DNA of 64,000 nucleotides, taken from NCBI RefSeq assembly GCF_963921235.1, contig NC_086097.1:496001-560000 (forward strand), in the 5' to 3' direction. The notes below the pieces were generated by a model. It was given only the letters and a program-made list of their open reading frames with translations, was not told where the DNA came from and ran no database searches. The translations under genes and the position numbers were made by a program. This document shows, in pieces, positions 8,490 through 57,448 of the stretch. Source of the stretch: Mobula hypostoma. Lineage: Eukaryota. Each line of letters opens with the position of its first letter. Positions within the stretch are counted from its first letter, which is position 1.

Positions 8490-8922
8490 GAGAAAAAGAT
8501 GGAGAGGAAAAAGAAAGTGGGGAATAGGGAAGGCCTCTCTCACCTTACCTCCCTGCCTGCTCAACACCTCCCTCCGGTGTTCGTCCCCCTTTTTCCTTCT
8601 CCCATGACCTTCTGTCCTTTCCCATTAGATTCCCCCTTCTCCAGCCCTGTATCTCTTTCAGCAATCAACTTCCGAACTCTTTACTTCATCCCTCCCCACT
8701 CCCAGTTTCACCTGTCACCTTGTGTTCCTCCGTCTCCTCTCTTCCCCACCCAAAGCCCCTTACTCTAACTTCTCATCTTTTTTCTCCAGTCTTGCTGAAG
8801 GATCTCGGCCCAAAACATCAACTGTACTTTTTTCCATAGATGCTGGCTGGCCTGCTGAGTTCTTCAGGCATTTTGTGTGTATTATTTGGATTTCCAGCAT
8901 CTGCAGATTTTCTCTTTTTTCT
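8490..8922 (+). mobile_element. Penelope-like pLTR remnant with a degenerate hammerhead at about 8787-8825
   Basis: C/T-rich pLTR, then agtcttgctgaaggatctcggcccaaaacatcaact (a mutated CTGAYGA...GAAAC core), then the tail gatgctg...ttccagcatctgcaga. Confidence 0.7.
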
Positions 8923-24509: not shown

Positions 24510-25426
24510 CCCCTCATATGTTAACTCCTTCATTCCCAGAATCAGCCCCATGAACCTCCTCTGGACTCCCTCCCTCCAATAACAACACATCCTTACTGAG
24601 ATATGTGGCCCAGAACTGTTGTCAATACTCCAAGTGCAGCCTGCCTAGTGTCTTATAAAGCCTCCTGGTTCTTACATTCTATTTCCCTTGAAATAAATGC
24701 CAACATTGCATTTGCCTTCTTTACCACAGATTTAACCTGTAAATTAACCTTCTGGGAGTCTTGCACGAGGACTCCCAAGTTCCTTTGCACCTCTGATGTT
24801 TGAATTTTCTCCCATTTAGGTAATAGACTGCACTTCTGTTCCTTTTACCAAATTGCATTATCATACATTTCCCAACACTGTGTTCCATCTGCCACATTTT
24901 TGCCCATTCTTCCAATTTGCCTAAGAACTTCTGCAAATGCATTGCTTCCTCAGCACTACCTACCCATCCACCTATCTTTGTATCATCTGCAAATTTTGCT
25001 ACAAACCATCAATTCCAAATCATTCACAATATGAAAAGCAGCAGTCCCAATACTGACCCCTGAGGAACACCACTAGTCACTGGCAACCAACAAGAAAAGG
25101 CCCCCTTTATTTCCACTCACTGTCTCCTGCCTGTCAGCCATTCTTCTATCCAAGCCAGTATCCTTCCTGTAACACCATAAGATTTTATCTTGTTAAACAG
25201 CTTCATGTGAGGCACTTTATCAATGCCTTCTGAAAATCTAAGTAAATGACATCCACTGACTCTCCTTTGTCCACTCTGCTAGTTACTTGCTCAAAGAATT
25301 CTAACAGATTTGTCAGGCAAGATTTGCTTTACTGGAACCATGCTTACATTAACTTGTATTATCTTTAGTCTCCAAGTGCCCTGAAACCTCGTCCTTAATA
25401 ATGGACTTAAACACTTTCTTAACCAC
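24510..25426 (-). mobile_element. CR1 RT, host of the Penelope insertion (continues at 28676-29745)
   Basis: CR1 RT motifs on the minus strand, colinear across the Penelope TSD. Confidence 0.8.
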
Positions 25427-25453
25427 AAACAACAGGAATTCTGCAGATGCTGG

Positions 25454-27445
25454 AAGGGGATGGCGTTTTTGCAAGAGACAGGGTGAGAAGAGGAATAGTC
25501 CAGATAGTTGTGAGAGTCAGTAGGCTTATAGTAGACATCAGTGGATAAGCTGTCTCCAGAGACAGAGACAGAAAGATCTAGAAAGGGGAGGGAGGTGTCA
25601 GAAATGGACCAGGTAAACTTGAGGGCAGGGTGAAAGTTGGAGGCAAAGTTAATAAAGTTAACGAGTTCTGCATGCGTGCAGGAAGCAGCGCCAATGCAGT
25701 CGTCGATGTAGCGAAGGAAAAGTGGGGGACAGATACCAGAATAGGCACGGAACATAGATTGTTCCACAAACCCAACAAAAAGGCAGGCATAGCTAGGACC
25801 CATACGGGTGCCCATAGCTACACCTTTAGTTTGGAGGAAATGGGAGGAGCAAAAGGAGAAATTATTAAGAGTAAGGACTAATTCTGCTAGACGGAGCAGA
25901 GTGGTGGTAGAGGGGAACTGATTAGGTCTGGAATCCAAAAAGAAGCGTAGAGCTTTGAGACCTTCCTGATGGGGGATGGAAGTATATAGGGACTGGACAT
26001 CCAAGGTGAAAATAAAGCGGTGGGGGCCAGGGAACTTAAAATCATCGAAAAGTTTAAGAGCGTGAGAAGTGTCACGAACATAGGTCGGAAGGGATTGAAC
26101 AAGGGGTGATAAAACAGTGTCGAGGTATGCAGAAACGAGTTCGGTGGGGCAGGAGCAAGCTGAGACAATAGGTCGGCCAGGACAGGCAGGTTTGTGGATC
26201 TTGGGTAGGAGGTAGAAACGGGAAGTGCGGGGTGTGGGAACTATAAGGTTGGTAGCAGTGGATGGGAGATCCCCTGAGCGGATAAAGTCGTTGATAGTGT
26301 GGGAGACAATGGCCTGGTGCTCCTTAGTGGGGTCACGATCGAGGGGTAAATAAGAGGAGGTATCCGCGAGTTGTCGCTGTGCCTCGGCAAGGTAGAGGTC
26401 AGTACGCCAGACTACAACAACACCCCCCTTACCAACGGGTTTAATAATAATGTTAGGATTAGTGCGGAGGGAGCGGAGAGCAGAGCGTTCCGAAGGAGTG
26501 AGGTTGGAATGGGGACAAGGTGCGGTGAAGTCGAGACGGTTAATGTCCCGTCGGCAGTTGGCAATAAAGAGATCCAGAGCAGGCAGAAGACCAGAGCGGG
26601 GTGTCCATGAAGAAGAGGAGGGATGAAGACGGGAGAAGGGGTCATCGGTGGGGGTGGAAGAGTCCTTGCCGAAGAAGTAGGCTCGGAGACGGAGACGGCG
26701 GAAGAAAAGTTCCGCATCATGGCGAACACGGAACTCGCTGAGGTGTGGGCGAAGGGGGACAAACGTGAGGCCCTTACTGAGAACAGAGCGTTCTGCCTCC
26801 GACAGTTGAAGGTCGGAGGGGATGGTAAAGACCCGGCACGGATGAGAGCTGGGATCAGAGGGGGGAGGGGGGAGGCTGGTGGTGTCAATGGAGAGGGGAG
26901 GGTTGGGGTGAGAGGAAGATGGAGCCTCTGAGGGCCCAGGAGCTGACGGTGGGATCTGAGGAAGACGGGGCTGCGGAGTGGTGGTGGGGGAAGGGGAGAC
27001 GGGAGTCACAACAGCAGCACATAAAGACCCGGCCTGGAGTTCAAGGCTGGAGTCGCAGTTGGTGGTTGCGCGATCGCTTTGAATGTCTCCATGGTCGTTG
27101 CTGGAGTCCGGGTTTTGAATATGTCCTGAGGTGTTGGAGCCGCCGAGACCAACGGCAGAAGCCGCAACCGAAAGTTCATGCCTGCTAGCGTCGGGGCCGG
27201 CAGGCTCTGGAGTCCGTAGATGTAAGATCTTGCGATCTTTGCCTAACATGACAAAGTCAAAGAAACGGCGATTGCAGGCGTGGATCCGACGGAGGATGAA
27301 ATAGCGGGTAGGACCATTACAGAAGATCTTGCGATCTTTGCCTAACATGACAAAGTCAAAGAAACGGCGATTGCAGGCGTGGATCCGACGGAGGATGAAA
27401 TAGCGGGTAGGACCATTACAGAAGATCTTGCGATCTTTGCCTAAC
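25454..27445 (-). CDS. Penelope-like reverse transcriptase (inverted part, open frame)
   Basis: LSKGLTFVP, FYLLPKIHK...GRPIVS, DVQSLYTSIP, GVAMGTRMGPSYA, RYIDD, LPFLD, YYKPTD. Ends at HPVSCKNAIPF. Confidence 0.92.
27224..27445. repeat. 99-bp tandem repeat, about 2.2 copies
   Basis: The unit starting aagatcttgcgatctttgcctaac recurs at 27224, 27323 and 27422. Confidence 0.95.
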
Positions 27446-27446
27446 C

Positions 27447-28286
27447 CCTGTCTCTTGCAAAAACGCCATCCCCTTCTCGCAATTCCTCCGTCTCCGCCGC
27501 ATCTGCTCTCAGGATGAGGCTTTTCATTCTAGGACGAGGGAGATGTCTTCATTTTTTAAAGAAAGGGGCTTCCCTTCCTCCACTATCAACTCTGCTCTTA
27601 AACGCATCTCCCCCATTTCACGTACATCTGCTGTCACTCCATCCTCCCACCACCCCACTAGGAATAGGGTTCCCCTGGTCCTCACCTACCACCCCACCAG
27701 CCTCCGGGTCCAACATATTATTCTCCGTAACTTCCGCCACCTCCAACGGGATCCCACCACTAAGCATATCTTTCCCTCCCCGCCTCTCTCTGCATTCCGC
27801 AGGGATCGCTCCCTACACAACTCCCTTGTTCATTCGTCCCCCCCATCCCTCCCCACTGATCTCCCTCCTGGCACTTATCCGTGTAAGCGGAACAAGTGCT
27901 ACACATGCCCTTACACTTCCTCCCTTACCACCATTCAGGGCCCCAAACAGTCCTTCCAGGTGAGGCATCACTTCACCTGTGAGTCGACTGGGGTGATATA
28001 CTGCGTCTGGTGCTCCCGATGTGGCCTTTTATATATTGGTGAGACCCGACGCAGACTGGGAGACCGCTTTGCTGAACATCTACGCTCTGTCCGCCAGAGA
28101 AAGCAGGATCTCCCAGTGGCCACACATTTTAATTCCACATCCCATTCCCATTCTGACATGTCTATCCACGGCCTCCTCTACTGTAAAGATGAAGCCACAC
28201 TCAGGTTGGAGGAACAACACCTTATATTCCGTCTGGGTAGCCTCCAACCTGATGGCATGAACATTGACTTCTCTAACTTCCGCTAG
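27447..28286 (+). CDS. Penelope-like RT thumb, linker and GIY-YIG endonuclease (open frame)
   Basis: PVSCKNAIPFSQFLRLRRICS...CKRNKCYTC...GVIYCVWCSRCGLLYIGET...RFAEH...HF...LEEQHLIFRLGSLQPDGMN. Confidence 0.93.
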   Translation, partial: PVSCKNAIPFSQFLRLRRICSQDEAFHSRTREMSSFFKERGFPSSTINSALKRISPISRTSAVTPSSHHPTRNRVPLVLTYHPTSLRVQHIILRNFRHLQRDPTTKHIFPSPPLSAFRRDRSLHNSLVHSSPPSLPTDLPPGTYPCKRNKCYTCPYTSSLTTIQGPKQSFQVRHHFTCESTGVIYCVWCSRCGLLYIGETRRRLGDRFAEHLRSVRQRKQDLPVATHFNSTSHSHSDMSIHGLLYCKDEATLRLEEQHLIFRLGSLQPDGMNIDFSNFR

Positions 28287-28578
28287 GCCCCACCTCCCCC
28301 TCGTACCCCATCTGTTACTCTTTTTAATGCACACATTCTTTCTCTCACTCTCCTTTTTCTCCCTCTGTCCCTCTGAATATACCTCTTGCCCATCCTCTGG
28401 GTCACCCCCCCCCGTCTTTCTTCCCGGACCTCCTGTCCCATGATCCTCTCGTATCCCCTTCTGCCTATCACCTGTCCAGCTCTCGGCTCCATCCCTCCCC
28501 CTCCTGTCTTCTCCTATCATTTTGCATCTCCCCCTCCCCCTCCAGCTTTCAAATCCCTTACTCACTCTTCCTTCAGTT

Positions 28579-28614
28579 AGTCCTGACGAAGGGTCTCGGC
28601 CTGAAACGTCGACT
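28579..28614 (+). ncRNA. Minimal type I hammerhead ribozyme in a PLE pLTR
   Basis: agtc-CTGACGA-agg gtctcgg cct-GAAA-cg-TC-gact. Stem I agtc/gact, stem II agg/cct, palindromic minimal stem III, predicted cleavage after GTC at 28610. Confidence 0.88.
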
Positions 28615-28675
28615 GCGCCTCTTCCTATAGATGCTGCCTGGCCTGCTGCGTTCACCAGCAACTTTGATGTATGTT

Positions 28676-29745
28676 ACTTTCTTAACCACTCTGGTTCAGC
28701 TAACTGGCCTATAATTTCCTCTCTTTTGTTTTCCTCCCCTTTTAAAGAGTGCAGTGCCATTTGCAATTTTCCAGTCCTCTGGGACCATGCGGGAATCAGG
28801 TGATTCTTGAAAGATCATGACCAATGCATCTGTTATTTCTTCAGCAAACTCTTTCAAGACTCTAGGGTGTAGTCCATCTAGTCCAGGACTCACCCACCTT
28901 AAGACTTTTCAGTTTGCCAAGTACTTTTTCCTTTGCAATAGCCAATGCCTCACTCCTGCTAACCGACCACTCACAAACCTCTGGCATACAGCTAGTGTCT
29001 TCCACAATAAAGACTGAAGCAAAGTACTTATTAAGTTCATCTGCCATTTCTTCATCCCCATTACTACCTCACCAGCATCATTTTCCTGTGGTTCAATATC
29101 AACTCTCACATCCCTTTTACTCTTTATATAACCGGAAAAACGTTTTCTATCCTGCTTTATATTATCAGCTAGTTTGCCCTCACTTTTCATCTTTTCCCTT
29201 CTTATAGCTCTTTTTACTAGCCTTTTGTTGGATTTTAAAAGCTTCCCAATCATAAGACCATAAGACATAGCAGCAGAAGTAGGCCATTTGGCCCATCGAG
29301 TATGCCCCGCCATTCAATCATGGGTTGATCCAATTTTTGCAGTCATCCCCACTCCCTTGCCTTCTCCCCATACTCTTTGGTATCATCATCCCACTTTTGC
29401 CACCTTATATGCCTCTTCCTTGACTTTTATACAGTTCTTAACTCCCCTCATCAGCCACGGTTGCCTAGCCCCGCCATTTGAGAACATCTTAGTCTGTGGG
29501 ACAAATCTATCCTGCGCCTTGTGAACTGTTCCCAGAAACTCCAGCCACCTCTGCTCTGCCATCATCCCTGCCAGTATCCCCCTCCAATCCACCTGGGCAA
29601 GCTCTTCTCTCATGCCTCTGTAATTCCCTTTATTCCATTGCAATACTGATACATGTGACTTCTTCCTCTCAAACTGCAGTATGAATTCAATTATATTATG
29701 ATCACTGCCTCCTAAGGGTTCCTTTACATTGAGCTCCCTAATAAG
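28676..29745 (-). mobile_element. CR1 ORF2 fragment, with a small CR1 3'-end insert at about 29250-29380
   Basis: [14 protein letters not shown]...NYRPVS. The insert begins with the tail cataagaccataagac. Confidence 0.8.
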
Positions 29746-44808: not shown

Positions 44809-47304
44809 ATAGGAGCAGAATTAGATGATTTGGCCCGTTGCGTCTGTTCCGACATTTCATCATAGCTGATCCATTTTCCCTCTCAGGCCCAATCTTCTGT
44901 CTTCTCCACATATCCCTTCATGCCAAAACCAATCAAGAATCAATCAACCTCTACCTTAAATATACCCAATGACTTGCCCTCCACAGCCGCCTATGGCAAT
45001 GAGTTCCACAAGTTCACCACTCTCTGGCTAAAAGAACACCCCTCTACTCTGAGGCTATGTCCTCCAGTATTAGACTCCCCAACCACAGGAAACATCCTTT
45101 CTACATCCATTCTATTGAGACCTTTCAACGTTCAATGAGGTCACCCCTCATTCTTCTGAATTCCAGTGAGAGCAGGCCCAGATCATCAAATGTTCTTCAT
45201 ATGGGGAGGGGAACATCGACTCAGACCATTAGAGTCCTGCGTCAGGCATTTTTATGCCTTACAAGGCGCAGATTGGAAGTCTGTGTGGGGCGCCACTCCT
45301 TGCACAGACACTAGAGCAATGTGTGATTAAGTGCCTTGCTCAAGGACACAAACACGTTGCCACAGCTGAGGCTCGAACGAGCGACCTTCAGATCACTAGA
45401 CGAACAACTTAACCAGTTGGCCATGTGCCCAACACAAATAACAAGTCTTTTAATCCCAGAATCATTTTCGTGAACCTCTTTTGAACCCTCCCCAATGTCA
45501 GTACATCCTTTCTTAGATAACAGGCCCAAAAACTGCTCGCAATACTCCAAGTGTGGTTTCACCAGTGCTTTATAAAGACTCAACATTACATCGTTACACT
45601 TATATTCCAGTCCTCTTAAAATTAATGCTAACATCACATTTGCCTTCCTCATCACAGACTCAACCTGCAAGTTAACCTTTAGGGAATCCTGCACCAGGAC
45701 TCTCAAATTCCTTTGCACCTCAGATTTTTTTTTTTTTACTTTTCTCTCCATTTAGAAAATAGTTTACCCTTTTATTTATTCTACCAAAGTGCATGACCAT
45801 ACACTTCCCATTCCATCTGCCACTTTTTTGCCCATTGTCCTCATCTGTCTAAGTCCTTCTCTAGACTCTCTGCTTCCTCAAAACTACCTGCCCCTCCACC
45901 TATCTTTGTATCGTCTGCAAACTTTGCCACAAAGCTATCAATTCCATCATACAAGTCAATGACAATGTAACGTAGAAATAAATGATCCCAAAACAGATTC
46001 CTGTGGAACACGGGCAGCCAACCAGAAAAGGCTCCCTTTATTCCCAATCTTTGATTCTTGTCAATCATCCACTGCTTTATCCATGCTAGTATCTCTCTTG
46101 TAATACCATGGCCTCTTAACTTGTTAAGCAGCCTCATGTGTAGCACCTTGTCAAAGGCCTTCTGAAAATTCAAATATACAACATCCACCGATTCTCCTTT
46201 GTCTATCCTTGTTTATCTTCAAAGAATTCTCACAGATTTTTCATGCAAGAATTTCCCTTCAGGAAACCATGCTGACTTCAGCCGATATTATCATGTGCCT
46301 CAAGTAACCCAAAACCACATCCTTAACAATCAACTCCAACATCTTCCCAACCACTGAGGTCAGATTAACTGGCCTATAACATCCTTTCAGCTGCCTCTCT
46401 CCCTTCTTGAAGAGTGGAGTGACATTTGCAAATTTCCATTCCTCTGGAACCATGCCAGAGTCAACTGATTCTTGAAAGGTCATTAGTAATACCCTCACAA
46501 TCTCTCCAGCCACCCCTTTCAGAACCCTGGGGTGTATACCATCTGTTCCAGGTGACTTAACTCCTTTCAGATATTTCAGTTTTCCCAAGAACCTTCTCCC
46601 TAGTAATGGCAACATCACACACTTCTGCCCCGACACTCTTCAACTTCTGGCATACTGCTAGCGTCTTCCACAGTGAAGACTGACGTAAAGTTCATCCACC
46701 ATTTCCTCGTCTCCCATTACTACCTCTCCAGCAACATTTTCCAGGGGTCCAATATACACTCTCACCTCTCTTTCACACTTCATGTATCTGAAGAAACTTT
46801 TGGTATCCTCTTTAATATTATTGGCTAGCTTGCCTTCATGTTCCATATTTCCTTCTTAATTACTTTTTTAGTTGCCTACTGTTGGATTTTACAAGCTTTC
46901 CAATCCTCTATCTTCCCACTAGTTTTTGTTCTATTATATGCCATCTCTTTGGCTTTGACTTGTCGTTACCCATTGTTGTGTCATCTTGCCTTTAGAATAC
47001 TTCTTCATTTTTAGGAGGTATACATCCTGTGCCTTCCGAATTGCTTCATGAAATTCCAGTCATTCCTGTTTTTCTGTCATCCCTGCAAAATATTCTTTTC
47101 CATTCAATGCTGGCCATCTCCTCCATCATGCCTCTGTAATTCCCTTTACTCCACTGCAATACTGATACATCTGACTTTAGCTTGTCCTTCTCAAAGTGCA
47201 GGGTGAATTCTATCATATTATGATCATTTGCATCTAACAGTTCTTTGACCTTCTCTAATCAATTCCAGTTCATTGCATAACACCCAAATCCAGAATAGCT
47301 GTTC
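44809..47304 (-). mobile_element. Older degraded CR1 ORF2 containing a SINE
   Basis: [37 protein letters not shown]. Confidence 0.85.
45215..45436 (-). mobile_element. tRNA-derived SINE with CORE-like motif
   Basis: Minus strand: tggccaactggttaag (A box), gttcgagcc (B box), gtgtccttgagcaaggcacttaa. Confidence 0.65.
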
Positions 47305-55752: not shown

Positions 55753-57448
55753 GACCATAAGACAAAGGAGCAGAAGTTGGCCATTCGGCCATCGAGTCTG
55801 CTCCGCCATTTTATCATGAGCTGATCCATTCTCCTATTTAGTAACACTCCCCCGCCTTCTCACCATAACCTTTGATGCCCTGGCTACTCAGATACCTATC
55901 AATCTCTGCCTTAAATACACCCAATAACTTGGCCTCCACTGCCGCCCGTGGCAACAAATTCCATAGATTCACCATCCTCTGGCTAAAAAAATTTCTTCGC
56001 ATCTCTGTTCTGAATGGGCGCCCTTCAATCCTTAAGTCATGCCCTCTCGTACTAGACTCCCCCACCATGGGAAACAACTTTGCCACATCCACTCTGTCCA
56101 TGCCTTTCAACGTTCCAAATGTTTCTATGAGGTCTCCCCTCATTCTTCTAAACCCCAAGGAATATAGTCCAAGAGCGGACAAACGTTCCTCATATGTTAA
56201 CCCTCTCATTCCCGGAATCATTCTAGTGAATCTTCTCTGTACCCTCTCCAACGTCAGCACATCCTTTCTTAAATAAGGAGACCAAAACTGCCCACAGTAC
56301 TCCAAGTGAGGTCTCACCAGCGCCTTATAGAGCCTCAACATCACATCCCTGCTCCTATACTCTATTCCTCTAGAAATGAATGCCAACATTGCATTTGCCT
56401 TCTTCACTACCGACTCAACCTGGAGGTTAACCTTAAGGATATCCTGTACGAGGACTCCCAAGTCCCGGGGCATCTCAGAACTTTGAATTCTCTCCCAATT
56501 TAAATAATAGTCTGTCCGTTTATTTCTTCTGCCAAAGTGCATAACCATACACTTTCCAACATTGTATTTCAATTGCCACTTCTTTGCCCATTCTTCCAAT
56601 CTATCCAAGTCTCTCTGCAGACTCTTCGTTTCCTCAGCACTACCGGCCCCTCCACCTATCCTCGTATCATCAGCAAACTTAGCCACAAAGCCATCTATTC
56701 CATAATCCAAATCGTTGATGTACAATGTAAAAAGAAGCGGCCCCAACACGGACCCCTGTGCAACACCACTGGTAACCGGCAGCCAACCAGAATAGGATCT
56801 CGTTATTCTCACTCTCTGTTTCCTGCCAATCAGCCAACGGTCTATCCACGTATGTAACTTTCCCGTAATTCCATGGGCACTTATCTTGTTAAGTAGCCTC
56901 ATGTGTGGCACCTTGTCAAAGGCCTTCTGAAAATCCAAATATACAACATCCACTGCATCTCCCTTGTCCAGCCTACTTGTAATTTCCTTAAAAAATTGTA
57001 ATAGGTTTGTCAAGCAGGATTTTCCTTTAAGGAAGCCATGCTGAGTTCTGCCTATCTTGTCATATGCCTCCAGGTACTCTGTAACCTCATCCTTGACAAT
57101 CGACTCCAACAACTTCCCAACCACCGATGTCAAGCTAACAGGTCTATAATTTCCTTTTTGCTTCCTTGCCCCCTTTTTAAATAGCAGAGTGACATTTGCA
57201 ATCTTCCAGTCCTCCGGAACCATGCCAGAATCTATCGACTTTTGAAAGATCATCGCTAATGCCTCCACAATCTCCACAGCTACTTCCTTCAGAATATGAG
57301 GGTGCGTTTCATCTGGTCCGGGAGATTTATCTACCTTTAGACTATTCAGCTTCCTGAGTACTTTCCCTGTCGTAATTGTGACTGCGCACACTTCTCTTCC
57401 CTGCCAACCTTGAGTGTCCGGTATACTGCTGATGTCTTCCTCAGTGAA
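55753..57448 (-). mobile_element. Young CR1 (further family), 5'-truncated, intact RT frame, 5-bp TSD
   Basis: Open frame from FTEED to GYGEKAGECY* (55838). Tail tcttatggtct. TSD gagta at 55748-55752 and 57449-57453. Confidence 0.93.

What the first reader, a model, noticed from the sequence alone, without database searches (positions are those of the whole stretch)
25413..28689. Single Penelope insertion with an inverted RT half, a transposed 3' tail and a 14-bp TSD
Seen, left to right: TSD; 29 nt (aaacaacaggaattctgcagatgctggaa, 25427-25455) that match the reverse complement of the PLE 3'-terminal tail missing from the right end (compare 8890-8920); the RT in reverse; the rest of the ORF forward; pLTR with hammerhead; TSD. 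About 30 nt (PVSCKNAIPF) occur in both halves, and both halves are stop-free, so re-inverting them gives one continuous RT-GIY-YIG frame. Established: L1 twin priming gives this geometry, and PLEs are known to leave inverted pLTR pieces. Inference: one recent integration in which second-end priming began on the RNA tail and then jumped via a TTC microhomology into the RT. This would be a detailed mechanistic footprint for a GIY-YIG element.
Basis: partly seen in the sequence, partly recalled or inferred. Interest (0 to 1): 0.75.

Follow-up and report, generated by a model that had tools for sequence, protein, structure and literature searches.

The report
Two-armed Penelope-like retrotransposon insertion
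One young insertion of a Penelope-like jumping gene has its front half backwards and its rear half forwards, as if copied from both cut DNA ends at once, which is a clean example of a structure already described for these elements.

Summary
A 14-bp target-site duplication (25413-26 and 28676-89) brackets four parts. They are a 29-nt inverted copy of the family's canonical 3' tail, an inverted 5' arm, a forward 3' arm that ends at the family's tail-less terminus, and a 31-nt overlap between the arms. Two paralogous copies of the host repeat carry the target site once. Both inner junctions are unique in the 3.48-Gb genome, and both arms belong to the same young subfamily.

The two halves together also lack the first ~123 codons.

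The tail is not "transposed". In a sample of 30 ends, 16 stop at this tail-less terminus. In 19 of 19 TSD-flanked head-to-head insertions examined, exactly one end carries the tail. A second insertion (L097) has the same "tail, leap, complementary arms" build.

Best reading: both target 3' ends primed reverse transcription, one at each of the two start sites known for these elements, and the tail-primed cDNA then leapt by a TTC microhomology.

Inverted arms, one-ended tails and extension of both strands are already published. This is a rare, informative member of a known kind. Long reads did not confirm the inner junctions.

The parts
25413..25426 (+). Left copy of the 14-bp target-site duplication, ACTTTCTTAACCAC
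   Evidence: Host-repeat paralogs at 46.3 kb and 57.1 kb of the window carry the site once.
25427..25455 (-). 29-nt stub of the canonical 3' tail (u3515->3487), inverted. It is the outer end of the tail-bearing arm, at RT start site 2. Its inner 3 nt (TTC on the sense strand) are shared with the ORF.
   Evidence: 100% match to the tail of L066. The canonical tail was seen in 14 of 30 sampled ends. The junction is unique in the genome.
25456..27223 (-). Inverted arm: the N-terminal and RT part of the ORF (u2277->~507), stop-free
   Evidence: 98.45% to L066. RVT_1 match with E 1.7e-5, below Pfam's cut-off.
27224..27445 (-). Perfect 99-bp x2.24 tandem array, in frame. It reads u506->407, u506->407, u506->483 and ends exactly at the inversion junction.
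   Evidence: The repeat junction occurs only in this element genome-wide (2 hits, both here). In most other sampled copies the sequence runs on colinearly upstream of u407.
27446..28286 (+). Forward arm, coding part: the end of the RT, the linker and the GIY-YIG endonuclease, up to the stop codon (from u2247)
   Evidence: 99.27% to L066. GIY-YIG match with E 1.7e-4, just below Pfam's cut-off. The inversion junction 27445|27446 is unique in the genome.
28287..28675 (+). Forward arm, 3' non-coding part (pLTR body). It ends at the tail-less terminus GTATGTT (RT start site 1, ~u3478).
28579..28614 (+). Minimal hammerhead-like motif: AGUC-CUGACGA-(helix II)-GAAA-CG-UC, then GACU
   Evidence: Read by eye and conserved in related copies. 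No Rfam match. The minimum-free-energy fold is not hammerhead-like.
28676..28689 (+). Right copy of the 14-bp target-site duplication

Best explanation
This is a single, recent retrotransposition of a canonical endonuclease-bearing Penelope-like element (PLE). The element's enzyme cut both target strands 14 bp apart, and both 3'-OH ends primed reverse transcription.

1. The bottom-strand end started at the family's upstream start site (site 1, just after GTATGT). It copied the RNA up to u2247. This became the forward, tail-less arm.
2. The top-strand end started at the downstream start site (site 2, the end of the 37-nt tail). It copied only 26-29 nt.
3. Its GAA-3' end then re-annealed to a UUC at u2275-2277. 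That point is about 30 nt inside the upstream edge of the stretch the first cDNA covered.
4. From there it continued to u407.
5. It jumped back twice, from u407 to u506, which made the 99-bp x2.24 array.
6. Its end was joined bluntly to the end of the first cDNA.

Shown:
- the anatomy of the insertion;
- that it is one event;
- that its ends are the family's two regular termini;
- that head-to-head insertions carry one tail each;
- that the leap geometry recurs.

Inferred:
- which DNA end primed which arm;
- the order of events;
- that both cDNAs used the same RNA molecule.
For: - **One event.** There is a 14-bp TSD, and the target site is single in two host-repeat paralogs.
- **Unique junctions.** Both inner junctions and the repeat junction occur only here in 3.48 Gb.
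- **Regular termini.** In a sample of 30 ends, 14 carry the tail and 16 stop at GTRTGT(T/TG/TGC).
- **Head-to-head arrangement is typical.** Among the first 100 listed 3' ends, 9 adjacent pairs within 3 kb lie minus-then-plus. None lie plus-then-minus, and 4 lie in the same direction. Eight of the nine are true pairs and one is two separate pairs.
- **One tail per insertion.** All 19 TSD-flanked head-to-head insertions examined, this one included, have exactly one tailed end. Sixteen of the 19 were found without regard to tail state. Independent choice at p = 14/30 would give 16 of 16 with probability ~1e-5.
- **The arms cannot be copies of each other.** They share only 31 nt, so both must have been templated directly.
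- **Coupled breakpoints.** The leap lands 31 nt from the other arm's inner end. Chance would give this about 2% of the time.
- **An independent second case.** L097 has a 13-bp TSD. Its tailed arm runs u3515->3334, then leaps to u1997->1614. Its tail-less arm runs u1929->3480, an overlap of 69 nt.
- **Microhomology.** TTC is present in both canonical contexts at the leap.
- **Same subfamily.** Both arms rank the comparison copies alike.
- **Published biochemistry.** A purified PLE protein cleaves and extends both strands. It starts at two adjacent internal RNA sites, and the sequence between them is the "tail" (PMC11167929, main text read).
Against: - No read-level proof of the inner junctions. 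Only short unitigs were available, and none was shown crossing 25455 or 27445.
- A tailed arm normally reads straight through site 1 (for example L051, L069, L070). This needs strand displacement or a second RNA, so the "same RNA" step is not established.
- A 29-nt stub is not a preferred stopping point. There were 24 stubs with the break at 29 nt and 21 at the 25-nt control position. Nothing therefore points to a collision with a complex sitting at site 1.
- The inner junction has no microhomology.
- Why the cDNA jumped twice between the same two points (u407 to u506) is unexplained. Only one shared T marks the jump.
- In vitro, no difference in start-site use between the two strands was reported. 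The one-tail rule is therefore not predicted by the published data.
- One tail/tail pair exists (L074), though it has no TSD.
Confidence: 0.7

Rival explanations
1. Single-ended priming with serial template switches (self-priming). One cDNA is primed at site 1 and runs to u2247. The enzyme then switches to an antisense template, either antisense RNA or another cDNA, and synthesises sense DNA from u483 to u2277 plus the tail. That strand is then joined to the other target end.
For: - Self-priming on an antisense template was proposed for the palindromic head-to-head structures of rotifer PLEs (PMC3846280, passages read).
- Many short pairs in this genome have nearly identical inner breakpoints, as a snap-back would give. 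Examples are L004 (u3365/3363), L016 (u3356/3356) and L070 (u2886/2886).
Against: - The inner junction here is not palindromic, and the arms overlap by only 31 nt, so no snap-back copy is involved.
- The left end coincides exactly with the canonical site-2 terminus. That site is documented as an initiation site, not a termination site.
- An extra antisense template would have to be assumed.
Confidence: 0.12
2. Two-ended priming on two separate RNA molecules, one per subunit of a dimeric particle. The near-coincidence of the leap's landing point with the other arm's end would then arise at the joining step or by chance.
For: - The PLE protein is predicted to be a dimer (PMC11167929).
- Colinear pairs with long inverted repeats, such as L051 (1.67 kb) and L069 (1 kb), show the same RNA region copied twice.
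Against: Two of the two leap cases seen land within 31 and 69 nt of the partner arm's end. The joint chance is ~1e-3. With independent templates there is no reason to leave the tail after 29 nt.
Confidence: 0.1
3. A plain 5'-truncated forward insertion that was later rearranged at the DNA level, by an inversion with duplication through a replication-based mechanism.
For: Inverting u407-2277 of a forward copy reproduces the order of the two arms.
Against: - It does not supply the inverted canonical tail stub at the left end.
- It does not explain the 31-nt duplication.
- It does not explain a tandem array that ends exactly at the junction.
- An independent insertion with the same build exists.
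Confidence: 0.04
4. An assembly artefact. PLE tandem and inverted structures are known to confuse assemblers.
For: The literature warns of this (PMC8557442). The inner junctions are not confirmed by reads.
Against: - Read-derived unitigs of two runs run across both outer junctions without mismatch (25369-25448 and 28653-28726). Their depth is 12-16, the same as the flank. They have only 22-23 nt on the short side and probably come from the assembled individual.
- The precise TSD, the intact frames and the canonical termini are not what a mis-join would produce.
- L097 repeats the build.
Confidence: 0.04

Closest known systems
Complex insertions of canonical EN+ Penelope-like elements (Craig et al. 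2021, PMC8557442; Arkhipova et al. 2013, PMC3846280; passages read)
   Same: - A single RT plus C-terminal GIY-YIG ORF, with pLTRs formed by partial tandems.
- An inverted 5'-truncated copy at the 5' side.
- A 30-40-bp tail at only one end.
- A short TSD of variable length.
[quoted passage not shown]
   Different: - Here the tailed arm is reduced to a 29-nt stub followed by a 1.2-kb leap.
- The two arms are therefore complementary rather than repeated.
- A 99-bp x2.24 array sits at the inner junction.
- Every junction is resolved to the base, within a TSD and with paralogous empty sites.
In vitro integration by the Anolis Poseidon element PAc (Frangieh et al. 2024, PMC11167929; main text read)
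   Same: - Both target strands are cleaved and extended.
- Reverse transcription starts at two adjacent internal RNA sites.
- The sequence between the two sites equals the genomic tail.
- Targets are AT-rich.
   Different: - The paper reports no difference in start-site use between the strands.
- In the text I read it does not discuss head-to-head genomic insertions.
- The copies in this genome show one tailed and one tail-less end per insertion (19 of 19 TSD-flanked pairs).
L1 twin priming (Ostertag and Kazazian 2001; recalled, not read here)
   Same: - A TSD around the whole insertion.
- An inverted upstream part joined to a forward downstream part.
- A small duplication where the two parts meet in the RNA.
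- The two cDNA ends are joined with little or no microhomology.
   Different: - There is no poly(A), and the endonuclease is GIY-YIG rather than APE-type.
- The second primer does not anneal internally. It starts at the element's regular terminal start site and only then leaps inward.

Membership tests
Canonical EN+ Penelope-like elements | One ORF with a reverse transcriptase followed by a C-terminal GIY-YIG endonuclease | tested here: met
   In the intact natural copy L066 (1016 aa), RVT_1 lies at residues 507-671 and GIY-YIG at 919-993. In this element the RT is in the inverted arm and GIY-YIG in the forward arm. All Pfam scores fall slightly below the curated cut-offs. The nearest Atlas clusters combine RVT_1 and GIY-YIG (a lead only).
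Canonical EN+ Penelope-like elements | Pseudo-LTRs formed by partial tandem copies | tested here: met
   In many natural copies the unit is preceded by a partial unit, for example u2905-3515 before u1 in L066.
Canonical EN+ Penelope-like elements | [quoted passage not shown] | tested here: met
   The tail is 37-38 nt. It is present on 14 of 30 sampled ends. Exactly one end is tailed in 19 of 19 TSD-flanked head-to-head insertions.
Canonical EN+ Penelope-like elements | A frequent inverted 5'-truncated copy adjoining the insertion (head-to-head) | tested here: met
   Among 100 listed ends, 9 adjacent pairs lie minus-then-plus and none plus-then-minus.
Canonical EN+ Penelope-like elements | A minimal hammerhead ribozyme in the pLTR | tested here: inconclusive
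   The core CUGACGA...GAAA...UC, with an ACGU palindrome and an AGUC/GACU helix I, is present at 28579-28614. There is no Rfam match at the gathering threshold or at E<=10. The minimum-free-energy fold is not hammerhead-like. Cleavage was not tested.
Canonical EN+ Penelope-like elements | The RT branches with PLE and telomerase RTs | not tested
   No phylogeny was made.
L1-type twin priming | A TSD-flanked insertion with an inverted upstream segment, a forward downstream segment and a small overlap or gap | tested here: met
L1-type twin priming | The second primer anneals at an internal site of the RNA, and the first strand is primed on poly(A) | tested here: not met
   The left end begins with the canonical terminal tail. 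There is no poly(A). The process works like twin priming but is not the L1 process.

The most novel reading that the evidence does not exclude
PLE integration may be a concerted two-ended reaction by one particle on one RNA.

- The two target 3' ends are assigned to the two different start sites, which gives one tail per insertion.
- The site-1 cDNA leads.
- The site-2 cDNA trails. It either recopies the same stretch, giving inverted repeats, or leaps over the RNA:cDNA hybrid to the free RNA ahead, giving complementary halves as seen here and in L097.

With more than 100,000 copies, this genome would allow the rule and the distribution of leaps to be measured directly.
Probability: 0.3. Interest if true: 0.6.

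Novelty: new member of a known kind. Interest (0 to 1): 0.4.

Why it matters
How PLEs complete integration is still open. That includes second-strand steps, the origin of inverted arms and the origin of the one-sided tail.

This copy is unusually legible:
- Every junction is base-resolved inside a perfect TSD.
- Paralogous empty sites are available.
- An intact natural copy can be used for coordinates.

It shows that a tail-less arm can be templated directly rather than by snap-back from the tailed arm. It also shows that the tail-primed cDNA can resume where the other cDNA ends.

Two family-level results add to this: the one-tail rule (19 of 19) and a second leap insertion. Together they give a natural counterpart to the 2024 in vitro finding that both strands are extended from two start sites. 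They also suggest that the two sites are used in a coordinated way, which I did not find stated in the papers I could search.

Tried and rejected
- **Whole-genome file.** It was not available.
- **DNA query of the 3' end against the own genome.** It found nothing, because common words are skipped.
- **Rfam.** No hammerhead or any other credible family matched. A plain minimum-free-energy fold of the motif is not hammerhead-like.
- **Hot-spot test for the 29-nt stub.** There were 24 stubs with a non-canonical upstream triplet at 29 nt and 21 at a 25-nt control position, against 26,460 exact canonical tails. This shows no enrichment, so a "collision at site 1" idea gains no support.
- **RNA fold around the two start sites.** It predicts a hairpin with site 1 at the 3' side of the loop, but the z-score is only -1.59 and 19 of 200 shuffles fold as well. 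This is not evidence.
- **Reads.**
  - Only short Logan unitigs were available. No piece was shown bridging the inner junctions, and no joint with exactly the empty-site coordinates appeared among those listed.
  - The listed skips (for example 25325 to 28699) probably come from paralogous repeats.
  - Contigs of a second organism label (162-165 nt) match 25298-25412 and then leave the stretch. This could be an empty orthologous site, but it could not be shown.
- **Earlier notes of this scan.** Nothing near this place and nothing for the twin-priming words.
- **Two independent insertions.** Rejected on the TSD, the contiguous paralogous flanks and the coupled breakpoints.
- **Different subfamilies for the two arms.** Rejected.


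Full report
**Observation**

- ACTTTCTTAACCAC stands at 25413-25426 and again at 28676-28689.
- Between the two copies, a minus-strand frame is open through 25456-27445 and a plus-strand frame through 27446-28286.
- The two halves share 31 identical bases in inverted orientation, 25453-25483 against 27446-27476.
It ends exactly at the inversion junction and is in frame.

**The family**

The window lies in a 3.48-Gb genome. Pattern searches worked.
- The 3' end motif occurs 108,442 times with at most 1 mismatch.
- The region around an internal ATG near the 5' end occurs 1,139 times with at most 3 mismatches. About 1 copy in 100 therefore reaches the 5' part.
- As a coordinate reference I used a natural intact copy, L066, not a consensus. 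Its ORF is 1016 aa. I call the repeat unit u1-3515; the ORF is u37-3087.
- Pfam finds RVT_1 and, C-terminal to it, GIY-YIG, both slightly below the curated cut-offs. Atlas neighbours combine the same two domains.
- Natural copies show partial tandem units, which form the pLTRs.

**Two regular termini**

In 30 sampled 3' ends, 14 continue after GTRTGT with tgcttgaatttccagcatctgcagaattcctgttgttt. The other 16 stop at GTRTGT plus 0-3 bases, and the element studied here is one of them. In full tandem units the tail is internal and is followed by gcgtttaaattc....

This matches the published account for an Anolis PLE. There, reverse transcription starts at two adjacent internal RNA sites, the sequence between them is the optional "tail", and both DNA strands are cleaved and extended (PMC11167929, main text read).

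The right end of this element is therefore a regular tail-less end (site 1). The 29 nt at the left are the last 29 nt of the regular tailed end (site 2), at 100% identity.

**Anatomy in unit coordinates**

| Window | Unit | Identity | Part |
|---|---|---|---|
| 25427-25455 | u3515->3487 | 100% | inverted tail stub |
| 25453-27323 | u2277->407 | 98.45%, no gaps | inverted arm |
| 27323-27422 | u506->407 | 100% | repeat |
| 27422-27445 | u506->483 | 100% | partial repeat |
| 27446-28679 | u2247->3482 | 99.27% | forward arm |

- The stub and the ORF share TTC in their canonical contexts...ccccTTCtcg in the ORF and aatTTCcag in the tail.
- The inner junction cctaac|ccctg has no microhomology.
- u1-406 is absent, so the first ~123 codons are missing.
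- In most other sampled copies the sequence upstream of u407 runs on colinearly. The repeat junction occurs only in this element. The array is thus specific to this insertion.
- The array ends exactly at the junction. A later slippage would need two events with the same boundary. I therefore read it as two jumps made during cDNA synthesis. This is an inference.

**One event**
- The flanks belong to a host repeat. In two paralogs within the window (46.3 kb and 57.1 kb) the left and right flanks are contiguous and hold the target site once.
- The tail/RT junction and the inversion junction each occur once in the genome.
- Both arms are closest to the same young copies. Examples (inverted arm / forward arm): L040 98.9/99.5%, L044 98.9/99.3%, L052 99.1/99.4%. 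Both are farthest from the same older ones, such as L055 and L060.

**Family-level regularities**
- Among the first 100 listed 3' ends, 9 adjacent pairs within 3 kb lie minus-then-plus (head-to-head), none plus-then-minus, and 4 in the same direction. One of the nine proved to be two separate head-to-head insertions.
- I examined 22 head-to-head pairs, this element included.
- Nineteen have a TSD of 10-16 bp, and all 19 have exactly one tailed end.
- Sixteen of those 19 were found without regard to tail state. At a tail frequency of 14/30, independent choice would give 16 of 16 with probability about 1e-5.
- The three pairs without a clear TSD are L071 (complex, one tail), L096 (one tail) and L074 (two tails).
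- L095 and L096 were picked knowing their tail state, so they are not part of the unbiased count.
- That the tail sits at only one end is stated qualitatively in PMC8557442 and PMC3846280.

**A second case**

L097 (G000:C1:2456260-2458960) has the following build:
1. a 13-bp TSD, ggtttataacagt;
2. an inverted tailed arm, u3515->3334;
3. a leap to u1997->1614;
4. 12 nt of filler;
5. a forward tail-less arm, u1929->3480.

As in the element studied here, the tailed arm leaps and lands just inside the other arm's end. The overlap is 69 nt there and 31 nt here. The two leaps I saw both show this. The chance would be about 0.02 x 0.04.

Other pairs are colinear and form long inverted repeats. Examples are L051 (tail-less arm u3477->394, tailed arm u1811->3515, 14-bp TSD) and L069.

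**Negative and weak results**
- A stub of exactly 29 nt is not favoured: 24 cases against 21 at a 25-nt control position, beside 26,460 exact canonical tails.
- Of the 20 such stubs fetched (of the 23 besides this element), most are joined to inverted arms, often at a TTC. Five have no recognisable element sequence beside them, and one of these (L076) is clearly framed by a TSD of its own. Two lie in tandem arrays of tail units.
- No Rfam hammerhead matched. The core motif and its ACGU palindrome fit the minimal, dimer-dependent hammerheads described for PLEs (PMC4209133, passages read). I could not show the fold.
- A hairpin around site 1 is not significant.
- Reads were available only as short unitigs. 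In two runs of one sample, probably the assembled individual, unitigs 25369-25448 and 28653-28726 run across the outer junctions without mismatch at flank-like depth. They have only 22-23 nt on the short side. The inner junctions were not shown.

**Mechanism**

The best reading (0.7) is a two-ended, twin-priming-like integration.
- One target end primed at site 1 and made the forward arm.
- The other primed at site 2 and copied 26-29 nt of the tail.
- It then re-annealed by GAA/UUC at u2275-2277 and ran to u407.
- It jumped back twice and was joined to the first cDNA.

The strongest single argument is that the arms are complementary rather than copies of each other. Both must therefore have been templated directly, and each begins at one of the two regular termini.

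Rivals:
- single-ended synthesis with a switch to an antisense template (0.12);
- two separate RNAs (0.10);
- a later DNA rearrangement (0.04);
- mis-assembly (0.04).

**Comparison and novelty**

The element meets the tested features of canonical EN+ PLEs. The hammerhead test is inconclusive and the RT phylogeny was not tested. The integration works like L1 twin priming but is not that process. The second end starts at the terminal start site and only then leaps, and there is no poly(A).

The following are all published:
- inverted arms;
- one-sided tails;
- overlapping permuted halves in inverted orientation (rotifer Pen3);
- extension of both strands.

My searches found no paper joining "twin priming" with Penelope in a relevant way (3 papers, none on PLE structure). 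None combined Penelope-like, head-to-head and target-primed (0 papers). I found no mechanistic PLE paper later than 2024.

The finding is real, the reading is sound, and the case is unusually clean, but it is a member of a known kind. Interest: 0.4.

Noticed in passing
G000 loci L003, L004, L008, L012, L016, L024, L029, L030, L068-L070, L072, L073, L095, L097, L051, L100 (two insertions), and window 25413-28689: All 19 TSD-flanked head-to-head insertions of this family that I examined have exactly one tailed end and one tail-less end. None has two tails or none. The only two-tailed pair (L074) has no TSD.
   Followed up: partly
L097 = G000:C1:2456260-2458960: An independent insertion with the same build as the finding. 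It has a 13-bp TSD, a tailed inverted arm that leaps from u3334 to u1997, and a forward tail-less arm from u1929. The overlap is 69 nt.
   Followed up: yes
L079 = G000:C12:144053580-144053761; L077 = G000:C2:223328744-223328925: Tandem arrays of the tail unit: the ~30-nt tail plus GCGT, at least 5 copies in L079. The short template between the two start sites seems to have been copied over and over, which recalls repeat addition by telomerase, the relative of PLE reverse transcriptases.
   Followed up: no
L076 = G000:C1:157836515-157836696: An insertion that consists of the 29-nt tail stub alone, flanked by a 12-bp TSD (atgtatatagcc).
   Followed up: no
L069 (G000:C1:1702900-1708500) and L100 (G000:C1:3761760-3764860): Two structurally different head-to-head insertions share the same 14-bp TSD (attatctgaatggt) and similar left flanks. 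The same site in paralogous host sequence seems to have been hit twice, which hints at target preference.
   Followed up: no
L063/L067 (G000:C2:116000-122500) and L050: Forward copies with large internal deletions: u1289-3341 in L063/L067 and u1458-2713 in L050. These may be template-switch products or non-autonomous derivatives.
   Followed up: no
window 24900-25426 and 28690-29251, with paralogs at 45828-46905, 56584-57364 and elsewhere: The insertion sits inside a dispersed host repeat with many 68-80% identical copies in the window. These copies served as paralogous empty sites.
   Followed up: partly
window 8649-8920 and 1703-1738: A ~70% identical relative family, and another element end, carry the same tail core TTCCAGCATCTGCAGA. 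The tail motif is therefore shared across diverged families.
   Followed up: no
window 25298-25412 (runs X5, X6): Contigs of 162-165 nt from runs under a second organism label match the left flank up to 25412 and then leave the stretch. This could be an empty orthologous site, but it is not shown.
   Followed up: no
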